From a virus (lineage: Duplodnaviria; Heunggongvirae; Uroviricota; Caudoviricetes), in the IMG/VR virus record IMGVR_UViG_2737471844_000004, positions 1-13,401 of that record: a stretch of DNA of 13,401 nt, one strand, 5' to 3'. Within the stretch, counting starts at the first letter, position 1, and every line of letters begins with the position of its first letter. This document shows positions 1-13,401 of the stretch, piece after piece. Below the pieces are notes generated by a model. It did not search any database. It worked only from the letters and a program-made list of their open reading frames with translations, and was not told the DNA's origin. The translations under genes and the position numbers were made by a program.

Positions 1-51
1 ATGTGTTGTAAAATCAGTCGAAGCCTAACAAGTGTGAATGACCTTTTAACC

Positions 52-762
52 ATGACGCAAGTGTTCAATGTTTACTGTGATGAGTCCTGCCATTTAGAAA
101 ATGATGGTCAAAAAGCAATGGTGCTCGGGGCTGTTTGGTGTCCTCTCAATAAGAGGTTTGGTATTGCTAATCGAATACGAGAGATAAAGCTCAAACATGG
201 CTTGGACCCACGTTTTGAAGTCAAATGGACTAAGGTTGGGGCTTCTAAAATTGAGTTTTATAAAGATTTGGTGGATTACTTCTTTGATGATGATGATCTT
301 CATTTCCGGGGATTGGTTATTCCTGACAAAACTCAGCTAAAGCATGATGATTTCGATCAAAGTCATGATGACTGGTACTATAAAATGTATTTTGTCATGT
401 TGAAAACTATTTTTGAGCCAGGAAGTCAATATAGAGTCTTTATTGATATAAAAGATACTCTTGGTCATGAGAAAATACTCAAGTTACATGATGTATTATG
501 TAACAATGCATATGATTTCTCTAGGAAAACAATTTCTAATATTAAGAGAATTAATTCTCATGAAGCTGAGCAATTGCAACTTGCTGATTTATTAATAGGT
601 GCCCTTAGTTATATGCATAGAGGTTTAAATGAAAGTAAGCCAAAACTTTTATTAATTAACAGGATCAGAGAAAGGAGCGGCTATAATCTAACCCAAAATA
701 CTTTGCTTCGAGAGTTAAAGTTTAATCTAATGATCTGGCAATCTAATGGGGGATGTCGATGA
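52..762 (+). CDS. DUF3800-like protein (family call from motif memory); start could instead be ATG at 1
   Basis: ORF 1..762; N-terminal MTQVFNVYCDES and later QLQLADLLIGALSY match the two motifs I recall for DUF3800 (N-terminal DES, C-terminal QxADxL). AT-rich. Stop TGA 760-762 overlaps next start (ATGA). Confidence 0.65.
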   Translation: MTQVFNVYCDESCHLENDGQKAMVLGAVWCPLNKRFGIANRIREIKLKHGLDPRFEVKWTKVGASKIEFYKDLVDYFFDDDDLHFRGLVIPDKTQLKHDDFDQSHDDWYYKMYFVMLKTIFEPGSQYRVFIDIKDTLGHEKILKLHDVLCNNAYDFSRKTISNIKRINSHEAEQLQLADLLIGALSYMHRGLNESKPKLLLINRIRERSGYNLTQNTLLRELKFNLMIWQSNGGCR

Positions 763-1244
763 GTCCGGTTTGGCTACCCGAGCAAATTTTATTAGAACAC
801 TATCAAGGTGAGTGGGAGGCCTACTTTGATAGTGTTTATCAAGCATTCCACCGCGATTTCGTTTTATCTAAACCAGTTTTTCGTGGCGTTCGATTAGGAT
901 TGAAACGTCATCCAGAATATGAAGGTAAATCAGCCACATTCTGGCATATGATTAGCACTGGAAATGTAGAAAGTGAGAGAGTGCCGGATATTCGGCGCTG
1001 CGAAAGAATTAGTTGGCCTAAGCCTGTTATAGATAATAGTACCGATACCTGTTTGAAAGTCTGGGCTGAGCCCAAAGGTAAAAATAGACGTATCCACATT
1101 TGGTTTGAGGATGAGGGATATCTGGTGGTTTTAGATGATAGAGGCGATTTTATGCTTCCATGGACAGCGTTTTATATTGAACATAACCATCAACGAAAGA
1201 AATACAATAAGAGATGGGAAAGACACAATCATAACGGTATTTGA
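759..1244 (+). CDS. Hypothetical protein, translationally coupled partner of the DUF3800-like gene
   Basis: ORF 753..1244; ATG at 759 has GGGGGA 6 nt upstream and overlaps the upstream stop. No recognisable motif. AT-rich like its partner. Confidence 0.6.
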   Translation: MSPVWLPEQILLEHYQGEWEAYFDSVYQAFHRDFVLSKPVFRGVRLGLKRHPEYEGKSATFWHMISTGNVESERVPDIRRCERISWPKPVIDNSTDTCLKVWAEPKGKNRRIHIWFEDEGYLVVLDDRGDFMLPWTAFYIEHNHQRKKYNKRWERHNHNGI

Positions 1245-1611: not shown

Positions 1612-1791
1612 TCACCGTCGTGGCCTGTCCGGTTTCTTCCACTGATACGGCCTCACATCATCCTGCTGGTGGCGTTCCTGTTGCAGCACAACGGAAACAG
1701 GCGCTGAACACCTGTTAATTTTGCTTGCTGGTTGTTTGATTTCGGCAATGCTGCGGATCATCTCCAGCATATCGGCTTCGGTGATGGTCAT
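1612..1791 (-). CDS. Small hypothetical protein (59 aa), below the ORF-track cutoff
   Basis: Hand translation of the minus strand: MTITEADMLEMIRSIAEIKQPASKINRCSAPVSVVLQQERHQQDDVRPYQWKKPDRPRR, stop TGA (plus 1612-1614). SD AAGGTG 6 nt upstream of the ATG (plus 1789-1791). Confidence 0.4.
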   Translation of the reverse strand: MTITEADMLEMIRSIAEIKQPASKINRCSAPVSVVLQQERHQQDDVRPYQWKKPDRPRR

Positions 1792-1823: not shown

Positions 1824-2080
1824 TTGACACTTTCCGGCTTAAGACCTTAACAAACCTTAACATCGCAGGTTGACACACTTGACACTTTTTCGCGAAAAAC
1901 CTTATCAAACCTTAGCATTTCTAAGCATGGCAACTTGACACTTTTCGCGATTTTTTTCGGCTTTTTGACGTGGTAAATCTGGCGCAAGGCCAGTAACGGC
2001 GGGGCTTACAGCGAGGTTGACACTTTTTCGCGTTCAGAGTGTAAAGTGTCAACCCGGCAAGCTGCTCAACTTGACACTTT
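1824..2080. repeat. Array of TTGACAC(TTTTTCGCG) motifs with a second ACCTTA(A/T)CAAACCTTA family; candidate packaging-recognition or protein-binding site
   Basis: TTGACAC at 1824, 1870, 1879, 1935, 2017 and 2071, an inverted copy GTGTCAA at 2046-2052, and a TTGACG variant at 1965. Three copies carry the extension TTTT(T)CGCG. CCTTAACAAACCTTAAC at 1844 and CCTTATCAAACCTTAGC at 1891. Spacing is irregular. Lies directly 3' of the TerS-like gene. Confidence 0.6.
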
Positions 2081-2086
2081 TTGATG

Positions 2087-2614
2087 TCATTGATGGTCTG
2101 ATTTTTCCCATTCAGCTAGGGCGTTTAGCCCGGCTTCACTCCATGATTCCAGTTCATCGGCATAATCACCTGCAACATAGCAGAGTTCGCAACGCAGCAT
2201 ACTAATTGCCAGCCTGGCATTACCTCGCAAATTGTATTGTTCAAAGTAATGCTGCCCGTCGCAATCCTCAAGGCAGATAGCACCATCATCAAGAAATTGC
2301 ACTTCCCAGCCTAATTCCCCGGCTGCATCCAGCACACGCTGCTGTATGCCCTCGTCCGTTGCTGGCGCAGGAATTTTACCGTCTCTGGCCTTAACTGCTT
2401 TCCAGAACTCGCCCCACGTCATTTCCAGCGTTCTCTCTGGCCACATTTCAGAAACTGTGTCTTTTCCCTGTGCTGGTGGGCTGTTCCGCTGCTCTGTCGC
2501 TTCCACATCGATTTTTTTACCGGACATGACCACTTCGCCTTTCTCGATCCAGTCGTAAACTGTCTGGCGGCTTACGCCTTTGTGTTTGGCATATTCTGCC
2601 TTACTCATCAGCAT
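2087..2614 (-). CDS. TerS-like / Nu1-like HTH DNA-binding protein with C-terminal Cys4 cluster; candidate packaging-redirecting (Rpp-like) protein
   Basis: ORF 2087..2614. N-terminus MSKAEYAKHKGVSRQTVYDWIEKG has the HTH pattern of small terminase N-termini. C-terminal C-x3-C-x23-C-x2-C (CLEDC ... CELC). Last gene of the operon, 4 nt after the upstream stop. Confidence 0.55.
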   Translation of the reverse strand: MLMSKAEYAKHKGVSRQTVYDWIEKGEVVMSGKKIDVEATEQRNSPPAQGKDTVSEMWPERTLEMTWGEFWKAVKARDGKIPAPATDEGIQQRVLDAAGELGWEVQFLDDGAICLEDCDGQHYFEQYNLRGNARLAISMLRCELCYVAGDYADELESWSEAGLNALAEWEKSDHQ

Positions 2615-2620
2615 TATGAC

Positions 2621-3292
2621 TCACCCTTCTTTTTCCAGTTGAGCCAGCCGCCCGGATATTTCTTCCAGTTTTTCCAGGGCTGGCTTGCAGGCCGCATCAA
2701 TAACGTCCCGGACCATTCCGGCAAGCTGTTCTTCTGCTGTCGGCGTTGTTACTTCCACGCCCGATGGTTTCCCGCCCTTATCCCAAACACCAAGCGGCAC
2801 GAGCGCAACGTGATCGATAAGAAATGGCGTACCCTCAATAAAAAAATTGTCCTCGCCCATTACATCAGGAACTTCTGCCCCACCTGAGGCACCACAAAAC
2901 ACAACCGACGGACTGGTGGATACCTCCCCTCGGGCTTTCTGGATGTAATCGATGATTTCCTGTCCGTAAATCCGGCATACGCCCCACACCTCGTCACCGC
3001 GAATATACGGCAACATGACGGTGCCAATAATGCGCGACCGTTCGCCCACGTCTTCAAGGGTTTTGCTTTCGGGATGGTCGATAATGACGGGTACTCCGGC
3101 GCAACGTTCCAGGAACTGCGGATTGAGATAAGTTTGCGGTGAACGCCAGACAAATTCTTTTTCTTCGGCGCGGTAGGCCATTCCGGTTCCTGTGATACGC
3201 AGGTTAACCAGCCACATGTTGGAAAACTGATAAGGCGACGGTAGCTGTCCGTCCCGAATCTGCTTCGCCGCCTCAATTTCTGTTAAAAGCAT
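2621..3292 (-). CDS. Hypothetical protein; weak prohead-protease-like pattern plus C-terminal coiled-coil-like tail
   Basis: ORF 2621..3292. VPVIIDHPES ... IIGTV ... GEVSTSPSVVF loosely recalls HK97-type prohead protease His and Ser regions; C-terminus PALEKLEEISGRLAQLEKEG looks scaffold-like. Weak RBS. Confidence 0.55.
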   Translation of the reverse strand: MLLTEIEAAKQIRDGQLPSPYQFSNMWLVNLRITGTGMAYRAEEKEFVWRSPQTYLNPQFLERCAGVPVIIDHPESKTLEDVGERSRIIGTVMLPYIRGDEVWGVCRIYGQEIIDYIQKARGEVSTSPSVVFCGASGGAEVPDVMGEDNFFIEGTPFLIDHVALVPLGVWDKGGKPSGVEVTTPTAEEQLAGMVRDVIDAACKPALEKLEEISGRLAQLEKEG

Positions 3293-3356: not shown

Positions 3357-3935
3357 TCATGCCCCCGCGAGGCTTGCAACGTTAATTTTGACCAGGCGAC
3401 GGGGAGGGATTTTGAAGGCGTTCAGCCAGACGTTCGGATCTCCCTGATATTCAGTAATACGACGACCAGCTTCATCCATTCTTACGGTTTTACCCAAATG
3501 GCCCGGCGTGTTTTCCACGGCCCACTGAGCACTTTCCTGAGCAGCCTTGTAAATCTGATCTTCCAGCACCGCCAGCGTTGCAGAATCTGAAACGGAACGA
3601 ATATCCACATCACTGAATTTTTTAGCCAGCTTCTGTGCGCCAATTAATGCACGTTTGCGGTAATCCATCGACTTTTCACCAGCAAACGGGGCCGGAGCGC
3701 GACGGCCCATATTGCTGTATGCGGAATCCGCTTTAGCCTGGGCTTCTGCCAGTGAGGATTCATCTTCGACTGACGCGACGATGTTTTGATTAGCGTTATC
3801 CTCTTTTATGAAATCCTGTGCGGGGATCGCATTCAGAATTTCGATAATCTCCTGCGGAGTGCTTCCCTGCGACTCTGACAGAGCGTTAACCACCTCCATC
3901 AGTTTTAATCGCAAATCTTCTTTGCTTGCTGGCAT
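3357..3935 (-). CDS. Hypothetical protein (192 aa from internal ATG), morphogenesis/packaging module by position
   Basis: ORF 3357..3944 opens at GTG; the ATG at plus 3933-3935 follows GAGAGGTGG at good spacing. No family recognised. Confidence 0.6.
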   Translation of the reverse strand: MPASKEDLRLKLMEVVNALSESQGSTPQEIIEILNAIPAQDFIKEDNANQNIVASVEDESSLAEAQAKADSAYSNMGRRAPAPFAGEKSMDYRKRALIGAQKLAKKFSDVDIRSVSDSATLAVLEDQIYKAAQESAQWAVENTPGHLGKTVRMDEAGRRITEYQGDPNVWLNAFKIPPRRLVKINVASLAGA

Positions 3936-3974
3936 TTTTACCACCTCTCTTTTTTCACCAAAAAATCACGACCA

Positions 3975-4638: not shown

Positions 4639-5231
4639 GCGCCTGTTTTCTCCTTTGCTGCCCGGCGCTGACGTTTGCGCTTCTCATTCAGCGCCACCAG
4701 CCGCGTTTCTGCGTCCTGTTGTTCCTGTGGTGTCACCTCGCCGCACGGCTGGCCTTTCAGGTCGTAGCGTACCCCACCAGCCATTAAGGCGCGGTAATAG
4801 CGCGGACACTGCGCATAAGATGCCAGCGTCGCACGTAATGCCCCTGGCCCGAATGCCAGCCCCCTGACGGCGAGATCCTGCATCAGGTCGTCGAATATCC
4901 CCACCTTAAGCGGCTTCGGTGCTTCCCGGCTGAATAATTCAGGCCACAACTCAGTGAGGCGGTTAATGCGCCTGCGGTTTTTTCGCTGCCGTTTGGTCAT
5001 ATGCCGCCACGGTGTCGCCCCTGTGGGCTTCTGCTGCGCTTTCTGGTTACCGGGCATCACTTTATGCGCCGATGTGGTTTTATCCTGCTGCTGCTGCTGC
5101 TGCTGCTGCTGCGCCGCCTGCGTCGTTTTCTGCGGCGTGCCGTAAATGCCTTTCGGTTTTCTGTTAATAGTCAGCTTAGTCATGCTTTGCCCCATCGTTT
5201 TTACTGATTGTTTCATATCCGGTACTTTCAT
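4635..5231 (-). CDS. FinO/ProQ-domain RNA-binding protein with N-terminal poly-Q tract; start codon uncertain
   Basis: ORF 4635..5231. LWPELFSREAPKPLKVGIFDDLMQDL ... YDLKGQPCGEVTPQEQQDAETRL parallels the ProQ N-terminal/FinO domain. Q9 run encoded by the repeat at 5086-5112. No clear SD at the first ATG; internal ATGs are possible starts. Confidence 0.7.
   Translation of the reverse strand: MKVPDMKQSVKTMGQSMTKLTINRKPKGIYGTPQKTTQAAQQQQQQQQQDKTTSAHKVMPGNQKAQQKPTGATPWRHMTKRQRKNRRRINRLTELWPELFSREAPKPLKVGIFDDLMQDLAVRGLAFGPGALRATLASYAQCPRYYRALMAGGVRYDLKGQPCGEVTPQEQQDAETRLVALNEKRKRQRRAAKEKTGA
5086..5112. repeat. Perfect (CTG)9 / (CAG)9 trinucleotide repeat, in frame within the FinO-like CDS
   Basis: Plus strand reads CTG nine times from 5086 to 5112. 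Confidence 0.95.
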
Positions 5232-5236
5232 CTTCT

Positions 5237-5522
5237 GGGTAGAGGGGTAGACGGCGGGTAGATAACAAAAAATAGTCCTCTACCCACTTAACTTAATGAA
5301 AAAAAACAACTTTCACACATTAGGTAGAGGGGTAGACCGTAAAATAGAAAAGTTTGAAACTTACTTTCTTACAATCTGTGTTTTCCTCTCGCTGTATAAA
5401 AAGTTTTTTGAGCGGGGATGTTGTCTACCCCTCTACCCACTTCTCTGAAAGCCTTGTGCTACGAGGGATTCAGCGGGTAGACAATAAAAAATCACCATCT
5501 ACCCTGTGTCTACCCATCTACC
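5237..5522. repeat. Iteron cluster flanking AT-rich spacers; candidate replication origin
   Basis: About 12 copies of GGTAGA(N)/TCTACC in both orientations (5237-5264, 5277-5287, 5321-5338, 5423-5440, 5473-5483, 5497-5522), including the inverted pair AGGTAGAGGGGTAGAC / GTCTACCCCTCTACCC around an AT-rich core. Immediately 3' of the primase-helicase gene. Confidence 0.65.
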
Positions 5523-5539
5523 TGTTACGGGTATTACTC

Positions 5540-7288
5540 TTATAAAAATTCCTCGGTTCTCTCCGTTTGTATAACGTTGGTTTGTATTCGTCCTTTAAAA
5601 CCTCTTGTCAGGTATTCAGCCCCATATTCTCTTGCTGCTGACTTCATGGCCTTACCAAAATCACCGACACTTAATATTTCTTCTTCCCCCATATACTCCA
5701 TAAAGGCGAGATATAGTCTGTACAGGCTTGTACGCGGATTAAGATCAGTTAATCTCTTACCGCCTCCCATCATCATCCCATGCGGTTCATCAAGAAATGC
5801 AAGCGCCGCACATAACCCAATGACAGGATCAGTTTCCTGTTTTATTTTCAGAGCTTCGGCACCGTCGCGCTGCTCCAACAATAATTCCCGTGCTTTTTCT
5901 GGATCGGAAAAGTTAGCCAGTAATCGACGAATAATGACAGGTATTTCCGCCGCTATCTTTTGCGGTAACTCTTTATCCTTTTCGGTCTCCCTTACAATAT
6001 TATCGAACCGAAAAATTACACGTCGACGCGCAACGCCTCCGGCCCGTTCGGTGAATGTCATCGGCACGTTATTTGTTGCCAGCACGACGGACCTGATAAT
6101 TGTTGTGAAACGCTTTTCATATTTCGGGTTAATTTCAACTGGATCTCCACCCGTTATTTTTTTGATGCCGGATCCTTCACCTGTATATTTCGGCTGGTCT
6201 GCCAGGACAATAAGACGACTTCCGACAACCTGCGCACGCCCGCCAGCATCATCAAGCGATGTCATTTCAGCGCTTACCGTGTTCTGTTTCCCTGCCAGAA
6301 GGGTGGCTATGTGCGTGATTGTGCTCTTGCCGCTCCCGCCTTCCCCTGTGGCCTCAATAAACATCTGCCAGTCGTACCGGTTCGCCATAATCATGTACAG
6401 CGCGGCGCATATACGCATCATCTTTCGCGGGTCTTTTCCTGCGGCGTGATCAAGCCATTTATGAAAGTTTGGCGCGTTGTCGCGGATGTTCTCCCCTGGT
6501 ACTGGTGGCGTGTACTCAATGCCGTTATGCGTGGTGATCCAGTTATCCGGCGAGTGCGGGGAAAATTCGCCAGTTTTCATGTCAAGCACGCCATTAGAGA
6601 ACGGCAATAAATCACCTGACGGTTCCCCCATTGGCCTGGCCATAACTTTTAAAGCATCCACAGCATTACTTATTGCTCTCCGACTAAACGATGTTCCGTT
6701 TTCTTCGTAAATAGCCACCATTTCACGACTAAGATCCAGTGTGCTTACCGGAACCCAAAAATCATCGCGCCAGACGTGGACAACCTCACTCTCCTGATTC
6801 ATTGCTACATCCTGAAATCGTTCAGCTAAAAGTTTTGCCCTTTGGCTGTCCGCCATTCTGGAAAGAGATATTTTGTGTTTTTTCTCGGTCCTTCCTGACA
6901 GAATTTCTCCGCGCTCAGCCTGTTCGCGGATCCGTTGCAGGTAGTCGCGCCAGTTCTCCGGTTCCTGGTCGGTGATGCCTTTGTATAATTTCGCCTCCTG
7001 TACGCCAGCCAGCGCCAGCTTTTCAGCGATAGTATTGATCTGGATTGGCTCTATCTCCCCCGCGATATAGACACGCGCAAAACGGCGTTTCTCGTCAATA
7101 ATGCGGATATTCGCCAGGTCTGCCAGTTGCTTTGGCCCCAGGTAAACAGGAGGCACGTTATCGCCGTGTTTTCGTCCTTCACTTTCAATCCAGTGTTGAG
7201 CATGGGCGTAAGCATCCGTCCCGGCAAAAATGATTACCTCAGTGAATTTATCCTTCGGCTGATATTTTAGACTCGGTGCGTTTTTCAC
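5540..7288 (-). CDS. Primase / SF3 (D5-like) helicase replication initiator, P4 alpha-like
   Basis: ORF 5540..7288, 582 aa. Walker A GEGGSGKST, Walker B-like LIVLAD, motif C VLATNN. GTG start overlaps upstream stop (GTGA) with GGGAGG 6 nt upstream. Confidence 0.85.
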   Translation of the reverse strand: MKNAPSLKYQPKDKFTEVIIFAGTDAYAHAQHWIESEGRKHGDNVPPVYLGPKQLADLANIRIIDEKRRFARVYIAGEIEPIQINTIAEKLALAGVQEAKLYKGITDQEPENWRDYLQRIREQAERGEILSGRTEKKHKISLSRMADSQRAKLLAERFQDVAMNQESEVVHVWRDDFWVPVSTLDLSREMVAIYEENGTSFSRRAISNAVDALKVMARPMGEPSGDLLPFSNGVLDMKTGEFSPHSPDNWITTHNGIEYTPPVPGENIRDNAPNFHKWLDHAAGKDPRKMMRICAALYMIMANRYDWQMFIEATGEGGSGKSTITHIATLLAGKQNTVSAEMTSLDDAGGRAQVVGSRLIVLADQPKYTGEGSGIKKITGGDPVEINPKYEKRFTTIIRSVVLATNNVPMTFTERAGGVARRRVIFRFDNIVRETEKDKELPQKIAAEIPVIIRRLLANFSDPEKARELLLEQRDGAEALKIKQETDPVIGLCAALAFLDEPHGMMMGGGKRLTDLNPRTSLYRLYLAFMEYMGEEEILSVGDFGKAMKSAAREYGAEYLTRGFKGRIQTNVIQTERTEEFL

Positions 7289-8364: not shown

Positions 8365-8581
8365 GGTGCACCTCCTGCACATCAGCCATGATAATTTTTC
8401 CGGCCTTATCCAGTGCCTGATCGGCTTTTAGCTGCACAAATGCTAAATAATGGGAGATGCATTCTGATTCTCTGGCTGCGTGTTTATGCGCCACACCAGC
8501 GATAGCAGAAATCTCAATAAGTGAATCCATCAGCGTTTTGATAGCGTCTACCGCTGCATCAGGCCATGTTGCATTACACAT
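8357..8581 (-). CDS. Small hypothetical protein (74 aa)
   Basis: ORF 8357..8581; AGGAGGTGG SD; start ATGTGTAA overlaps upstream stop by 8 nt. Confidence 0.6.
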   Translation of the reverse strand: MCNATWPDAAVDAIKTLMDSLIEISAIAGVAHKHAARESECISHYLAFVQLKADQALDKAGKIIMADVQEVHHA

Positions 8582-8939
8582 GTTCCACCTCCTGGCGAAT
8601 ACGGGCGGCGAATACCATCACGCAGCCATCAGGAGATTGCTGACGTGCTTCCTGTTCGCTGGTGGCCTCGATGTGAATTACGCGCGGTTGTGCCGTGCTC
8701 AGGGCGATAAAACGCCAGATAAAATTGTTCTCGCATTTCTGAATAAACAGCGTGTTTTCTTCGCGCCCTTTCCATGTTGCCGAGATATAGCCCATGTCAT
8801 TGAGCATCTCGCAGGCATCAACCAGCGTATCAGCAGCTACGTGTACAGTGTTTTTACCGTCAGCTATGCAATCACGGTGCACCGCCAGGAAGGTGTATAT
8901 AAATTTAGGGTGAGTTTGGGTATGCTGTGTTCCAGCCAT
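8574..8939 (-). CDS. Hypothetical protein (121 aa), first gene of the leftward operon
   Basis: Internal ATG (plus 8937-8939) of the long minus-strand open frame, with GAGGT 7 nt upstream and a promoter/operator region immediately 5'. Natural-looking sequence MAGTQHTQTHPKFIYTF... Confidence 0.6.
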   Translation of the reverse strand: MAGTQHTQTHPKFIYTFLAVHRDCIADGKNTVHVAADTLVDACEMLNDMGYISATWKGREENTLFIQKCENNFIWRFIALSTAQPRVIHIEATSEQEARQQSPDGCVMVFAARIRQEVEHV

Positions 8940-9028
8940 AATCGTTACCTCATTTAACGGTTTGGTTAGACGCCCCGCTACTGCCGCAAACAGTTCGGGG
9001 CGTTGTCGTTTACATCCTCTTACTGAGG

Positions 9029-9104
9029 TGTGATTTAAATTAAATTTAACTGAATCACAGGTCAAGTATTTTTTGTGATTCTTTTTTGTGTATACTGAAT
9101 CACA
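9029..9104. promoter_or_regulatory. Divergent promoter region with two TGTGATT-N17-AATCACA operator-like palindromes
   Basis: Palindromes at 9029-9059 and 9074-9104. Plus-strand -10-like TATACT at 9091-9096 lies inside the second; minus-strand -35 TTGACC (9060-9065) and -10 TAATTT (9037-9042) overlap the first. Confidence 0.55.
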
Positions 9105-9126
9105 TCTTTTGTTTAGGAGAATGCAC

Positions 9127-9432
9127 ATGGCAAAAAACACTATCAACGACAAATCAAAACAGATTTCAATTCGTATCCCACATGATGCTTTTGAAGGCAT
9201 GGAATCCGTAAAACTGGACGGTGAAAGCAACGCCGGATTCATAGTAACCGCCATGCGCGGTGAGATCGCCCGCCGCCAGGCAGAAGGAAGCGGAGAAAAT
9301 CCCCTGGTTTCTTCGCTCGATGCGCTGGCGCAGGTGGAAAAAATCGGAGTCAAAGCTGCCGAGGAGATCGGGCAGCTCGTCACCGTCGCACGTGAAGAAC
9401 TCCAGCGCCGCAAGGCCAAAGAATCAGAATAA
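9127..9432 (+). CDS. Small putative DNA-binding regulator (RHH-like); candidate island repressor
   Basis: ORF 9088..9432; ATG at 9127 with AGGAGA 6 nt upstream. Pattern ISIRIP (beta), HDAFEGMESVKL, NAGFIVTAMRGEIARR (helices). The only plus-strand gene in the backbone. Confidence 0.65.
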   Translation: MAKNTINDKSKQISIRIPHDAFEGMESVKLDGESNAGFIVTAMRGEIARRQAEGSGENPLVSSLDALAQVEKIGVKAAEEIGQLVTVAREELQRRKAKESE

Positions 9433-9667
9433 TAACTATCATCGCCGTGGTGTGAGGAACTCCGGCGCATTGCTTTACAGGTACACAGAATGACCAACAA
9501 AGAATCAACCAATACACCATCACCGGCACGGAAAAGACGGCGCAGAAAGATAGAGCACGAATCAGAAAGATTCGCGCCATGTGCTTTTGCCCTTGAGCAA
9601 TTCCTTAAAGAGTACAGGCGCACAAAAATGGGATCGCATACCTGGAAAACATCGCGGCATGGCAATG

Positions 9668-10106
9668 TTAAAGAGCATGAATAGCCCACCAGCAAGCCAG
9701 CACACTGATCACATTGCCCACCAGCCGCAAATCTGGCATTGTTGGCAATGTGTTCAAGTGTGTAGCTTTCCCACTGGTGGCCCTCTGCAGTCGCCTTTGT
9801 TTTATCCAGAACGAAATCAGACATCAGATTGATCAGCACCTGGTGACCTGACAAAATCGCATCAGTCACGCCACCAGCAAAATTTTTTGCTTTCCGGACA
9901 GCGTGGCCAACGGCATTTTGCAGCGAAATATTCTGCATTTCTGGCGTGCTGTAGTAACGGTGATCAGTGCCTTCACTCTGTGCGACCACAACGCTATAAT
10001 CTGCCTCGTAGACAGTAAGCAATATGGCGCAGTAGGCTATTCGTTCACAAAGGCGCTCCGGCAACGGGGCGCTTTCTCTTTTTGTAACGGTCAGAGCGTT
10101 ACACAT
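9668..10106 (-). CDS. Hypothetical ORF with well-defined 5' end but unresolved 3' end; possibly frameshifted
   Basis: ATG at 10106 overlaps the AntA-like stop by 8 nt (ATGTGTAA) and starts MCNA like the gene at 8581. First ~130 aa look protein-like, then Cys/Ser-rich junk; no in-frame stop until 8574. An alternate frame ends at plus 9668. Confidence 0.3.
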
Positions 10107-10977: not shown

Positions 10978-11196
10978 TCAGGCTGATGTGTTTCGGCGTT
11001 CTTCCAGCCAGCGATTAACCTCTACCGCATCGAATGCAGTGCTTTTCTCACCCAGTTTGATGGGCTTAGGCATCTTCCCGCTACGCACCCAACGATCGAG
11101 CGTTGATAAGCTGGTACCCAGCAATTCAGCCAGGCGATAGCGGCGGATATAGCCAGTTGCAGGGATTGCGGTTTGAAGTATTGGTTGGTTTTTCAT
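10978..11196 (-). CDS. alpA: AlpA-family DNA-binding regulator (excisionase-like)
   Basis: ORF 10978..11289; probable start MKNQPIL at 11196. RRYRLAELLGTSLSTLDRWVRSGKMPKPIKLG ... VEVNRWLEERR is the typical AlpA signature. Confidence 0.8.
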   Translation of the reverse strand: MKNQPILQTAIPATGYIRRYRLAELLGTSLSTLDRWVRSGKMPKPIKLGEKSTAFDAVEVNRWLEERRNTSA

Positions 11197-11308
11197 ATGC
11201 CCCATTACCTTTGTTGTTGGTTTGTGATTCGTAATAGGGGCATTAAATAACAAATGAAATGATGTGTGTGTGAGTTTTAGAAAAAACACTGTGACTTTTC
11301 TTATTTCA

Positions 11309-12147: not shown

Positions 12148-13401
12148 TTATTTATTAGATTGCGTGATGTCAGAACATATCATGTTTTCTAAATTCACCA
12201 GCAAATCAGTCCACTGTGCCAGCGCCGCTTTGCGCTCATCAAAATATTGATGGCGGTTATAAATGCCCTCTACGCCTTTTATGCGGTGGTTAAGGCATCG
12301 TTCAGCAACGATCGGGTCAACTCCCAATGCTGCTAAATGTGTTCGTGCTGTTCGCCGGAAGTCGTGAATTGTAAAGTTGGGGACGTTCGGCATTTCTGCT
12401 CTGACTTTTGCCAATGCAACAGGAAGGGTGCTTTCCTGGATGTGAGGGATCATTCTGTGCTGCATTTTTCTGGCAGGTAATACCCATGCGCTATTGCATG
12501 AAAATGTGTGCAATTCTCGCAACCATTCTATGGTCGCTGGTGGTAATGGTATGTCGATAGCATCGCCATTTTTAGTTCGTTGTTCTGGTAGATGCCAAAT
12601 CGCGCCATCTAAGTCGAATTCATCCCACCTGGCGGCGCATAACTCCATTTTTCTGACACACAATGCTAAGAGCAACTTAAAGGTTAATTCGTTCTGGCGG
12701 CTGAATCCTTTGGCTTTACGCATGGCCTGAAAAAATTGGATTAATTCGTCACGGTTCAGCCAGCGATCACGAGATAATTCTTTCCCACCAGCATCTGATA
12801 CTTCAAAAGCTGAGCAGGGGTTAACCTCCAAAGCAAGGCGTTTAATACCGTAGTCAAATATTCGACGTGTCCACCGAAGAACGTCAGTAGCAATTGTTGG
12901 AGCGCCTCTATCAACAATGCTTTTAAGCATGGCATCAATATGGCGTGGTTTTACATCTTCAACCTTCATGTGGCCTATGGCAGGATTTATGTCTTTATCA
13001 ATGCGCCTGCGGAGAATATCTGGGTGTTTCCATCGGGGAAGTATTTGCCGTGCAAAGTATTCGGCGGCAAGTTCAGAAACATGCAGCGCGTTTTTTTCAG
13101 CTTCTATTTTTGCCAGTGCTTCGGCTTTACGCTGCTGTTTTTCTGCGGCTACGTCATATCCCAAAGCAACTCGTGCGGAAAGTTCTTTTGCCAGTTCCCT
13201 GGCTTTTGATAACGATAATTCAGAATATGAACCAATAAGCATGGCACGAGATTTTCCTGCCAGTTTATATCGAAACCGCCATGTCGGGGATCTATCCACC
13301 TCTCTATACCGGAGATATAGCCCACCACCATCAGCACGACCTTCGAAATGTTCTCCGGCTTTTATCCATGCGCGGATCTGCATATCTGTGAGTTTTGGCA
13401 T
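12148..13401 (-). CDS. int: P4-type tyrosine integrase (site-specific recombinase)
   Basis: ORF 12148..13401, 417 aa. N-terminus MPKLTDMQIRAWIKAGEH...DGGGLYLRY and C-terminal HDFRRTARTHLAALG...ERCLNH...IYNRHQY carry the R...HxxR...Y catalytic signature. ATG sits exactly at the window edge. Confidence 0.95.
   Translation of the reverse strand: MPKLTDMQIRAWIKAGEHFEGRADGGGLYLRYREVDRSPTWRFRYKLAGKSRAMLIGSYSELSLSKARELAKELSARVALGYDVAAEKQQRKAEALAKIEAEKNALHVSELAAEYFARQILPRWKHPDILRRRIDKDINPAIGHMKVEDVKPRHIDAMLKSIVDRGAPTIATDVLRWTRRIFDYGIKRLALEVNPCSAFEVSDAGGKELSRDRWLNRDELIQFFQAMRKAKGFSRQNELTFKLLLALCVRKMELCAARWDEFDLDGAIWHLPEQRTKNGDAIDIPLPPATIEWLRELHTFSCNSAWVLPARKMQHRMIPHIQESTLPVALAKVRAEMPNVPNFTIHDFRRTARTHLAALGVDPIVAERCLNHRIKGVEGIYNRHQYFDERKAALAQWTDLLVNLENMICSDITQSNK

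What the first reader, a model, noticed from the sequence alone, without database searches (positions are those of the whole stretch)
1824..2080. Repeat array of TTGACAC motifs next to the TerS-like gene as candidate packaging-recognition site
Six direct and one inverted TTGACAC copies, three with a TTTT(T)CGCG extension, interleave with a second ACCTTA(A/T)CAAACCTTA family within about 260 bp. The spacing is irregular, which suits a protein-binding array such as the R sites of lambda cosB rather than CRISPR. It abuts the stop of the TerS-like HTH gene. In E. coli PICIs the Rpp protein is reported to bind island DNA near cos; this could be the analogous site. I could not find a convincing cosN nick site.
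Basis: partly seen in the sequence, partly recalled or inferred. Interest (0 to 1): 0.6.

Follow-up and report, generated by a model that had tools for sequence, protein, structure and literature searches.

The report
Packaging-protein binding-site array in a phage satellite
The TTGACAC repeats are real and conserved, and they are most likely the docking sites for the neighbouring terminase-like DNA-binding protein, letting this E. coli phage satellite get its own DNA packed into a helper phage's capsids; the DNA cutting site itself is still not found.

Summary
Seven TTGACAC copies (six on +, one on -) all lie in 1824-2077, where 1.7 are expected in the whole window.

The window is a Gram-negative PICI-type satellite: int, alpA, primase and an iteron origin at 5232-5539.

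The adjacent 175-aa protein has an N-terminal winged helix-turn-helix of the lambda Nu1 (small terminase) type. This domain is 47% identical to the DNA-binding domain of the Nu1-type TerS of Serratia phage BZS1.

Across Enterobacterales, 107 of 116 IMG/VR occurrences of the array's palindrome sit beside a homologue of this protein. The motif is about 270-fold enriched just downstream of the gene.

A sister satellite lineage is decisive. There the same motif array follows a cosQ-cosN homologous to the annotated cos of phages BZS1 and phiNP. It occupies the R3 position (bp 47-67), where the phages carry GGTAACA repeats.

So the array is best read as a cosB-like recognition array, analogous to the Rpp/cos1 system but not a member of the Rpp family.

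Caveats for this lineage:
- No cosQ or cosN is detectable.
- The gene is inverted relative to the array.
- A 22-mer inside the array is otherwise found in replication origins.

Origin, promoter and excision-site readings were tested and are disfavoured.

The parts
1824..1830 (+). TTGACAC copy 1 (TTGACACTTTCC), the leftmost and least conserved copy
   Evidence: It is deleted in E. coli STEC276 and F9792 and mutated to TTAACTC in O104:H4.
1870..1885 (+). Overlapping tandem pair TTGACACACTTGACAC (copies 2 and 3); copy 3 carries the TTTTTCGCG extension at 1886-1894
   Evidence: Invariant in the E. coli relatives that have it. The same doublet arrangement (TTGACACTTTACACTTGACAC) occurs in lineage-B satellites at bp 47-67 from cosN.
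1935..1949 (+). Copy 4 with its extension, TTGACACTTTTCGCG
   Evidence: invariant in alignment A1.
2017..2032 (+). Copy 5 with its extension, TTGACACTTTTTCGCG; left arm of the palindrome
   Evidence: I3.
2046..2052 (-). Copy 6, inverted (GTGTCAA on +); right arm of the palindrome
   Evidence: The pair TTGACACTTT-N(8-30)-AAAGTGTCAA is the family signature used: 116 IMG/VR stretches, 107 of them beside a homologue of the protein.
2071..2077 (+). Copy 7, gene-proximal, 9 nt from the stop codon
1844..1859 (+). Second repeat family ACCTTAACAAACCTTA, copy 1; binding partner unknown
   Evidence: Related blocks (CATAACAAACCATAA, CTAACAAAAGCTAAC) occur in Enterobacter-type arrays.
1899..1914 (+). Second repeat family ACCTTATCAAACCTTA, copy 2
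1990..2011 (+). 22-mer CCAGTAACGGCGGGGCTTACAG in the 75-nt gap between the left and right copy clusters; function unexplained (a candidate cleavage site or an origin-type element)
   Evidence: It is conserved in many lineage-A arrays. Elsewhere it lies beside iterons in unrelated replication origins.
2087..2614 (-). Gene for a 175-aa protein: an N-terminal Nu1/TerS-type winged HTH (about aa 1-42) plus an alpha/beta C-terminal domain with no confident match
1612..1791 (-). 59-aa ORF immediately downstream of the array; not a constant partner, because other family members have different sequence here

Best explanation
The 1824-2077 array is a cluster of recognition (R) sites for the winged-helix domain of the adjacent 175-aa protein. 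That protein is a satellite-encoded derivative of a lambda-Nu1-type small terminase subunit. Together they form the packaging-specificity module of a PICI-type phage satellite.

Proposed mechanism: after induction by a helper phage, the protein binds the TTGACAC(TTTT) sites, either alone or, like Rpp, as a hetero-complex with the helper's TerS. It thereby brings the helper's large terminase onto satellite DNA rather than phage DNA, which starts packaging of the island.

Shown here:
- The array exists and is conserved.
- The array and the protein are near-obligate neighbours.
- The protein's DNA-binding domain is of the TerS type.
- In a sister lineage the same motif occupies the cosB position of a cos site homologous to an annotated phage cos.

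Inferred:
- That the protein binds the motif.
- That the array directs packaging in this lineage.
- Whether cutting is at a fixed site (cos) or headful (pac).
- The identity of the helper.
For: 1. Non-random and conserved. All 7 copies lie in 254 bp. Over 115 related loci the motif density is 11.4 per kb in the 350 nt downstream of the gene and 0.042 per kb elsewhere, a 270-fold difference. These loci are not phylogenetically independent.

2. Pairing of protein and array. Motif clusters follow the gene in Rouxiella, Raoultella, Buttiauxella, Pantoea, Lelliottia, Enterobacter and Pseudocitrobacter, even at 37-40% protein identity. Of 116 IMG/VR hits to the palindrome, 107 have the gene adjacent.

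3. Matching conservation. The N-terminal 40 aa are nearly invariant while the rest of the protein diverges, which matches the invariant motif.

5. Sister lineage B (7 loci). The order is GGGTCC(T/C), 20 nt, ACG, a 12-nt core, CGCG, the spacer CTAGCTATAAnTTTTTGAATTTGA, then the TTGACAC array, then a Nu1-like gene. This cosQ-cosN-spacer is homologous to Citrobacter phage phiNP (79% over 82 nt, E = 4e-11). It also matches the left end of Serratia phage BZS1, where bp 1-12 are annotated cosL and a Nu1-type terS starts at bp 75. The phages carry GGTAACA repeats at bp 48-73 and the satellites carry TTGACA(G/C)/TTTACAC/TTGACAC at bp 47-67. This is the lambda R3 position, bp 50-65.

6. Covariation of recognition helix and motif. 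SRQ(T/A)(V/L)Y(D/S/T)W goes with TTGACAC; SRKTVTSW in the phage goes with GGTAACA.

7. Site order. The copies at 2017 (direct), 2046 (inverted) and 2071 (direct) next to the gene have the same order as lambda R3, R2 and R1.

8. Precedent. EcCICFT073 has cosN-cosB directly upstream of rppA, and Rpp redirects TerS to a PICI-specific cosB (PMC6739421).

9. Position. The array sits at the boundary between the conserved core and the variable cargo. From general knowledge, this is where P4 and lambda carry their cos sites.
Against: - In the window and in all 108 lineage-A loci there is no cosQ (GGGTCCT) and no lambda- or BZS1-type cosN.
- The gene is always inverted, with its 3' end abutting the array, unlike lambda, EcCICFT073 and lineage B.
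- No phage in INPHARED carries the array or the protein. Phages sharing the island's DUF2213 head gene have no TTGACAC near their terminase genes. No helper is therefore identified.
- The C-terminal domain does not resemble a TerS oligomerisation or TerL-binding domain.
- The 22-mer in the array's gap lies beside iterons in unrelated replication origins.
- Two loci (L022, L023) encode the same DNA-binding domain without an array; one of these genes is truncated and the other has a different C-terminal part.
- No biochemical or genetic data exist for this family.
Confidence: 0.6

Rival explanations
1. Operator array for a transcription regulator. The HTH protein would be a repressor or activator (some databases call homologues 'repressor'). 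The repeats would be its operators, controlling the downstream ORF and cargo genes or acting as a roadblock or insulator at the border between core and cargo. In lineage B they would autoregulate the gene.
Against: None of the seven TTGACA hexamers has a usable -10 element: the scan found 0 promoter-like sites in 1400-2700. In lineage A the array is downstream of its gene, and the downstream neighbour is not conserved. In lineage B the array sits at the exact cosB position of a cos site homologous to an annotated phage cos, replacing the phage's TerS sites. A purely regulatory role does not explain this.
Confidence: 0.15
2. Replication-associated site. The array would be a second origin, a crr-like enhancer or a partition site, with TTGACAC copies acting as iterons for the HTH protein around an origin-type 22-mer.
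For: The 22-mer at 1990-2011 is found beside iterons in several unrelated contexts. One is the p0111/RepFIB-type origin of P1-like phage-plasmids, about 399 plasmids. Another is directly 3' of Toprim plus D5-helicase genes in L170. A third is 3' of a Prim-Pol/AAA_25 gene in L153. Repeats flank the 22-mer on both sides, as in those origins. From general knowledge, P4 uses two separated iteron regions, ori and crr.
Against: The island has a classical origin elsewhere. At least 14 GGGTAGA iterons in both orientations flank an AT-rich centre at 5232-5539, directly after the primase stop codon. In the E. coli A17 relative the replicase module is swapped and has its own CCTCACTTTT iterons, yet the TTGACAC array and the gene are about 99-100% identical. 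The array therefore does not co-vary with the replicase. There is no AT-rich unwinding block: GC is 0.45-0.47 across the array against 0.39-0.42 at the origin. Copy spacing of 54-82 bp is atypical for iterons. Many lineage-A arrays and all lineage-B arrays lack the 22-mer. The DNA-binding domain derives from a terminase subunit.
Confidence: 0.12
3. Interference-only decoy. The protein and array would mainly titrate or mislocalise the helper's small terminase to block helper packaging, without being needed for satellite packaging.
For: Rpp both blocks helper packaging and promotes PICI packaging (PMC6739421). The island carries defence cargo, PDC-M04.
Against: A multi-site cis array conserved next to the gene in more than 100 elements is not needed for a protein-only inhibitor. 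Lineage B couples the array to a complete cos.
Confidence: 0.06
4. Binding sites for a recombination directionality factor (excisionase) in an attP arm.
For: The Xis/Cox-type fold and weak excisionase-model hits.
Against: The array is at least 1.8 kb of variable cargo away from the island end and more than 10 kb from int. The island has its own AlpA at 10978-11289.
Confidence: 0.02

Closest known systems
Rpp / cos1 system of E. coli PICI EcCICFT073 (Fillol-Salom et al. 2019, PMC6739421; Murialdo & Feiss 2022, PMC9026076)
   Same: Both are PICI-type satellites. Both encode a small protein with a Nu1-like winged-helix DNA-binding domain next to a satellite-specific recognition sequence. In the sister lineage B, cosQ and cosN match the helper type while cosB differs, exactly as in EcCICFT073.
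   Different: There is no sequence homology to RppA or RppC beyond a 25-aa HTH stretch. The protein has 175 aa against 144-153, with a different alpha/beta C-terminal domain. Rpp-type PICIs are proposed to have a single R3-like site, whereas this array has 5-7 copies spread over 254 bp. In the window the gene is inverted and no cosQ or cosN is present.
lambda cosB (R3-I1-R2-R1) bound by gpNu1
   Same: Repeated sites for a Nu1-type wHTH lie next to the small-terminase-like gene. The gene-proximal triplet is direct, inverted, direct, like R3, R2, R1. In lineage B the first site lies at bp 47 from the left end, where lambda R3 is at bp 50-65.
   Different: The motif differs (TTGACAC rather than CGTTTCC-type). 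The arms of the inverted pair are only 16 nt apart, and no IHF consensus was recognised between them. Extra copies lie 80-250 bp away. The window has no cosN. The array abuts the gene's 3' end.
cos of Serratia phage vB_SspM_BZS1 (MT843275) and Citrobacter phage phiNP (OR565852)
   Same: These phages have the closest TerS DNA-binding domain, 47% identical to the window protein. Their cosQ-cosN-spacer is shared with lineage-B satellites.
   Different: Their R sites are GGTAACA, and their TerS is a full Nu1-type protein paired with a gpA-type TerL. The window shares neither their cosN nor their R sites.
SaPI TerS with its pac site, and SPP1 pacL-pacC-pacR (from general knowledge, not tested here)
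   Same: The satellite encodes its own small-terminase-like specificity factor with a cognate site in or near the gene. Binding-site clusters lie on both sides of a central gap.
   Different: Those are headful systems of Gram-positive bacteria with unrelated TerS folds and oligomers. No evidence here shows that the 175-aa protein binds a TerL.
Iteron origins and the P4 ori/crr
   Same: Clustered short repeats in both orientations; an origin-associated 22-mer is present.
   Different: The array does not co-vary with the replicase and is not AT-rich. The true iteron origin lies elsewhere, at 5232-5539.

Membership tests
Gram-negative PICI (context of the array) | int, alpA and pri genes, co-oriented | tested here: met
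   int at 12148-13401, AlpA at 10978-11289 and a D5_N/DUF5906 primase at 5540-7288, all on the minus strand. Definition taken.
Gram-negative PICI (context of the array) | origin of replication immediately downstream of pri | tested here: met
   At least 14 GGGTAGA iterons flank an AT-rich centre at 5232-5539.
Gram-negative PICI (context of the array) | induction, replication and transfer by a helper phage | not testable with these tools
   No helper was identified.
Rpp protein family | sequence homology to RppA, RppB or RppC | tested here: not met
   No PDB sequence hit to RppC with either the single sequence or the profile. BLASTP against RppA gives only 9 of 25 identities in the HTH, pairwise E = 0.001.
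Rpp protein family | TerS(Nu1)-like winged-helix DNA-binding domain | tested here: met
Rpp protein family | gene directly downstream of, and co-oriented with, cosQ-cosN-cosB | tested here: not met
   The window gene is inverted and no cosQ or cosN is present. The feature is met in EcCICFT073 and in lineage B.
Rpp protein family | heterodimerises with helper TerS and redirects packaging | not testable with these tools
   Needs two-hybrid or pull-down assays and transfer assays.
lambda-type cosB | several R sites for a Nu1-type DNA-binding domain, with the middle one inverted | tested here: met
   Copies at 2017 (+), 2046 (-) and 2071 (+). Orientation rule from PMC9026076. Binding itself is inferred.
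lambda-type cosB | fixed distance (about 48-65 bp) from a cosN with a cosQ upstream | tested here: not met
   No cosQ or cosN in the window or in 108 lineage-A loci. Met in lineage B, where the first site is at bp 47.
lambda-type cosB | lies between cosN and the start of the small-terminase gene | tested here: not met
   The array abuts the stop codon of the gene.
lambda-type cosB | IHF site between R3 and R2 | tested here: inconclusive
   By eye there is no WATCAANNNNTTR match in 2024-2045. The ACCTTAWCAAACCTTA elements are near-matches with the wrong spacing. No dedicated scan was run.
Iteron-type replication origin | iterons co-vary with, and lie next to, the initiator or replicase gene | tested here: not met
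   The replicase module is swapped between the window and E. coli A17, each with its own iterons (GGGTAGA or CCTCACTTTT), while the TTGACAC array is unchanged.
Iteron-type replication origin | AT-rich unwinding element | tested here: not met
   GC is 0.45-0.47 over 1651-2250.
CRISPR array | regularly spaced repeats of 24-40 nt with unique spacers | tested here: not met
   The core is 7-16 nt, the spacing is irregular and the orientations are mixed.

The most novel reading that the evidence does not exclude
The array may be more than a cosB analogue. It could be a composite nucleoprotein site in which terminase-type R sites surround a previously undescribed 22-bp element, CCAGTAAYGGCGSGGCTTACAG. 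That element also sits beside the iterons of unrelated replication origins: p0111-type phage-plasmids, and satellites with D5-helicase or Prim-Pol replicases. If the element binds a common host factor or acts as a priming or cleavage signal, this satellite family would physically couple replication to initiation of packaging. Alternatively, the element would be a widely shared cleavage signal that lets diverse small replicons be packaged by one helper type.
Probability: 0.15. Interest if true: 0.75.

Novelty: new variant of a known kind. Interest (0 to 1): 0.58.

Why it matters
The Rpp paradigm shows that Gram-negative PICIs redirect a helper's terminase to a satellite-specific cosB. The sequence actually recognised there has only been proposed, as a single R3-like site.

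This family offers four things:
- A clearly defined, multi-copy recognition motif.
- A second, non-Rpp solution built on the same Nu1-type DNA-binding domain.
- A natural swap in which helper and satellite share cosQ and cosN but differ in the repeat (GGTAACA versus TTGACAC) and in two recognition-helix residues.
- Candidate helpers, phiNP and BZS1, for the sister lineage.

Together these make packaging specificity directly testable by swapping motifs and helices.

The module also marks the border of a variable cargo slot that carries defence genes, so it bears on how such genes are mobilised among Enterobacterales. About 3% of complete E. coli genomes carry it.

Tried and rejected
- **Promoter cluster** (TTGACA is the -35 consensus): 0 promoter-like sites in 1400-2700.
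- **Known RNA family:** no Rfam match in the array.
- **Lambda, P2/P4 and BZS1 cosN, and cosQ, in the window:** none found. A recurrent 4-mismatch BZS1-cosN-like hit about 3.5 kb away lies inside the ProQ/FinO coding sequence and was rejected.
- **Origin of the primase:** rejected, because the real iteron origin is at 5232-5539 and co-varies with the replicase.
- **Mimicry of the helper's site:** phages sharing the DUF2213 head gene (Rac-SA53, PdC23, Chronis) have no motif near their terminase genes, and Rac-SA53 TerS is an unrelated Terminase_2 protein.
- **Searches of the phage collection** with the array, the protein and the lineage-B protein: no match.
- **Lambda cosN followed by TTGACAC in IMG/VR:** only chance hits inside coding regions.
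- **Wider search for lineage B:** no new member was found, and L175 is a chance hit.
- **Contig ends as virion termini:** no terminal repeats; the ends are gene-boundary cuts.
- **Search with the 45-aa DNA-binding domain alone:** returned only truncated fragments, with no full-length phage TerS.
- **The 22-mer as cosN:** the frame ACG-N12-GCG and an R copy at bp 48-54 looked attractive. However, its distance to the R sites varies (56, 82 and 99 bp) among relatives, and it occurs in plasmid origins. This remains open and is not adopted.
- **Literature:** no paper holds the 22-mer, and no paper links TTGACAC to a terminase site in such elements.

Full report
**Observation.** TTGACAC occurs seven times in the window, all between 1824 and 2077. 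Six copies are on the + strand (1824, 1870, 1879, 1935, 2017, 2071) and one is on the - strand (2046-2052). Shuffles of the window give a mean of 1.7, and none of 200 reaches 7. The real unit is longer, roughly SSTTGACACTTT(T)(T)CGCG. Three copies carry the CGCG extension. The main copies are spaced 55, 56, 82 and 54 bp apart. The copies at 2017 and 2046 form a perfect 12-nt inverted repeat. The second family, ACCTTAWCAAACCTTA, occurs twice, at 1844 and 1899, where 0.01 is expected. The array ends 9 nt before the stop codon of the minus-strand ORF 2087-2614.

**Context.** The window is a chromosomal island of E. coli. The segment 1600-2620 is 100% identical in strain A17, where the island lies between yicC and dinD. 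The segment is present in 170 of 5,426 complete E. coli genomes and in no plasmid of those E. coli assemblies. The genes, all on the minus strand, are:
- a tyrosine integrase,
- AlpA,
- an AntA-like protein,
- an Icd-like segment,
- a D5_N/DUF5906 primase,
- ProQ/FinO,
- a DUF2213 head-protein homologue,
- the 175-aa HTH protein.

This is the gene set of a Gram-negative PICI (definition quoted). Beyond the array lie a 59-aa ORF and a cargo pair that matches the PADLOC candidate defence system PDC-M04.

**The protein and the array travel together.**
- In 20 loci from species-representative genomes, TTGACAC/GTGTCAA clusters lie within about 300 bp downstream of the gene. This holds in Escherichia, Rouxiella, Raoultella, Buttiauxella, Pantoea, Lelliottia, Enterobacter and Pseudocitrobacter, even at 37-40% protein identity.
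- The signature TTGACACTTT-N(8-30)-AAAGTGTCAA occurs in 116 IMG/VR stretches, and 107 of them have a homologue of the protein directly adjacent.
- Over 115 loci the motif density is 11.4 per kb in the 350 nt after the gene and 0.042 per kb elsewhere. These loci are related, so this figure is descriptive rather than a probability.
- Among E. coli variants the core copies are invariant while the flanking bases and the leftmost copy vary.

**A sister lineage shows what the motif does.** Seven IMG/VR loci (L032, L075, L083, L099, L123, L135, L136; lineage B) encode a different protein of about 190 aa. Its N-terminus is related (44% identity over 41 aa to the window protein) and it hits phrog_57 over residues 1-89. 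In these loci the TTGACAC array lies upstream of the gene and is co-oriented with it.

About 50 nt further upstream, every lineage-B locus carries GGGTCC(T/C), then 20 nt, then ACG, a 12-nt core (GGCATTGCGCGC in most loci) and CGCG, followed by the spacer CTAGCTATAAnTTTTTGAATTTGA. This is the lambda layout of cosQ and cosN with identical spacing, as seen in EcCICFT073 cos1. The block is homologous to Citrobacter phage phiNP (79% over 82 nt, E = 4e-11). It also matches the left end of Serratia phage BZS1, whose record annotates bp 1-12 (GCATTGCGCGCC) as the left cohesive end. In BZS1 a Nu1-type terS starts at bp 75 and a gpA-type terL follows.

After the shared spacer the phages have GGTAACA repeats at bp 48-73. 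The satellites instead have TTGACA(G/C), TTTACAC and TTGACAC at bp 47-67. Lambda R3 occupies bp 50-65, and in lambda-like phages R2 is inverted relative to R3 and R1 (PMC9026076). In lineage B, TTGACAC is therefore the R site of a cosB: helper-type cosQ and cosN, satellite-specific cosB, and a satellite Nu1-like protein. This is the logic shown genetically for Rpp (PMC6739421).

**Link back to the window.**
- The window protein's DNA-binding domain is 47% identical and 76% similar to that of BZS1 TerS.
- The recognition helix covaries with the repeat. SRQTVYDW (window) and SRQALY(S/T)W (lineage B) go with TTGACAC. SRKTVTSW (BZS1) goes with GGTAACA.
- The three gene-proximal copies in the window run direct, inverted, direct, as in lineage B and in lambda.

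I therefore take the array to be the set of R sites of this protein and, most likely, the packaging-specificity site of the island.

**What does not fit.** None of the 108 lineage-A loci, the window included, has a cosQ or a lambda- or BZS1-type cosN. In lineage A the gene is always inverted, so that its 3' end abuts the array. No helper phage is identified:
- The array and the protein have no match in 50,697 phage records.
- The phages that share the DUF2213 head gene use an unrelated Terminase_2 TerS and lack the motif.

Whether this lineage is cut at a fixed site or packaged by the headful remains open.

**An unexplained element.** The 75-nt gap between the left and right copy clusters holds CCAGTAACGGCGGGGCTTACAG (1990-2011). 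A degenerate search found the element in 37 IMG/VR stretches. Some are lineage-A satellites. The others are unrelated contexts in which it lies directly beside iterons:
- the p0111/RepFIB-type origin of P1-like phage-plasmids, about 399 plasmids,
- a position just 3' of Toprim plus D5-helicase genes in L170,
- a position 3' of a Prim-Pol/AAA_25 gene in L153,
- a repeat-rich intergenic region near lysis and terminase genes in L152, L154, L159 and L169.

No paper in the library contains the sequence. Its frame, ACG-N12-GCG, resembles a lambda-type cosN, and the inverted copy would then fall at bp 48-54. However, its distance to the R sites varies among relatives (56, 82 and 99 bp), and its home in plasmid origins argues against that reading. 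It is the main reason I keep a replication-related rival alive.

**Rivals tested.**
- *Origin of replication.* The island's origin is at 5232-5539, with at least 14 GGGTAGA iterons around an AT-rich centre directly after the primase gene. In the A17 relative the replicase module (window 5197-6900) is replaced by a RepA-family helicase with its own CCTCACTTTT iterons, yet the array and the gene are unchanged. The array is also not AT-rich.
- *Promoters.* No hexamer has a usable -10 element.
- *Excision sites.* The array is separated from both island ends by kilobases of variable DNA, and AlpA is present.
- *Regulator with operators.* This cannot be excluded, because the fold is shared with Xis, Cox and BldC. 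It does not explain the lineage-B geometry.

**Verdict.** The correct description is 'a new, non-Rpp variant of the PICI packaging-redirection module with a multi-copy R-site array'. It is not 'the Rpp site'. The cut site and the helper for this lineage are unknown. Confidence is about 0.85 that the repeats are the protein's binding sites and about 0.6 that their role in this lineage is packaging specificity.

Noticed in passing
window 5232-5539: Replication origin of the island. At least 14 GGGTAGA(G/C/T) iterons in direct and inverted orientation flank an AT-rich centre (about 5338-5420), immediately downstream of the primase stop codon at 5540.
   Followed up: yes
window 5197-6900 versus L001 17579-19797: The replication module is swapped relative to the otherwise 94-99% identical island of E. 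coli A17. The window has a D5_N primase with GGGTAGA iterons; A17 has a RepA-family helicase with CCTCACTTTT iterons at L001:18363-18772.
   Followed up: yes
window 1990-2011; L149:1501-1528; L150-L170: The 22-mer CCAGTAAYGGCG(C/G)GGCTTACAG is shared between lineage-A arrays and the iteron regions of unrelated replication origins: p0111/RepFIB phage-plasmids, Toprim plus D5-helicase elements and Prim-Pol/AAA_25 elements. Its function is unknown and no paper in the library contains it.
   Followed up: partly
window 1-1244 (+ strand): The cargo pair DUF3800 (1-762) plus a 163-aa protein (753-1244) matches PADLOC candidate defence system PDC-M04 A and B (E = 8e-98 and 9e-74). In relatives the slot next to the array holds other cargo: an AAA ATPase with DUF4435 (PARIS-like by name, in O104:H4), DUF4747, and an RNA-binding-domain protein. 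The slot therefore behaves as a variable cargo hotspot.
   Followed up: partly
L075, L099, L083, L123, L135, L136, L032: A rare second satellite lineage (7 IMG/VR loci) has a cos whose cosQ-cosN-spacer matches phages phiNP and BZS1. It also has a TTGACAC cosB and its own Nu1-like gene. Some members carry tape-measure-like and minor-tail genes just upstream. In L083 the Nu1-like gene is followed by myovirus sheath, tube and DNA_circ_N genes, which may mean the satellite is embedded in or next to its helper.
   Followed up: partly
L010, L012, L013, L015, L016, L036, L057, L067, L103, L105 (not in the window): A further conserved element, GTTTCGT(T/A)T, lies 8-10 nt after the inverted copy, for example AAAGTGTCAACCTGTCGGGTTTCGTTTCC. 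It resembles the lambda R1/R2 sequence CTGTCGTTTCCTTTCT and could be a half-site for a helper TerS next to the satellite's own site.
   Followed up: partly
window 2621-3292 and 3357-3944 (- strand): Two adjacent ORFs match different parts (positions 115-328 and 409-544) of one 545-position phage family, phrog_6216/DUF2213. In phages Rac-SA53, PdC23 and Chronis this is a single head-module gene between the portal/head-morphogenesis genes and the major capsid gene. The island copy is either split or a shortened derivative.
   Followed up: partly
L147:48-73 and 240-300: In phage BZS1 the GGTAACA repeat continues inside the terS coding sequence, where it encodes a G-N-K/N-rich repeat. The phage's R-like sequence and part of its TerS protein are thus written in the same DNA.
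   Followed up: no
window 8574-10106 (- strand): A 510-aa ORF has only its last 50 or so residues matching Icd-like cell-division inhibitors. The A17 relative annotates several small genes here, so the long ORF may not be a real gene.
   Followed up: no
L022:3660-3960: In Serratia aquatilis, a gene with the same N-terminal DNA-binding domain but a different C-terminal part follows a cluster of TGTTCAC(C) repeats. This is the P4 type-I iteron (from memory), and the cluster lies downstream of a 615-aa ORF. No TTGACAC array occurs within 4 kb.
   Followed up: partly
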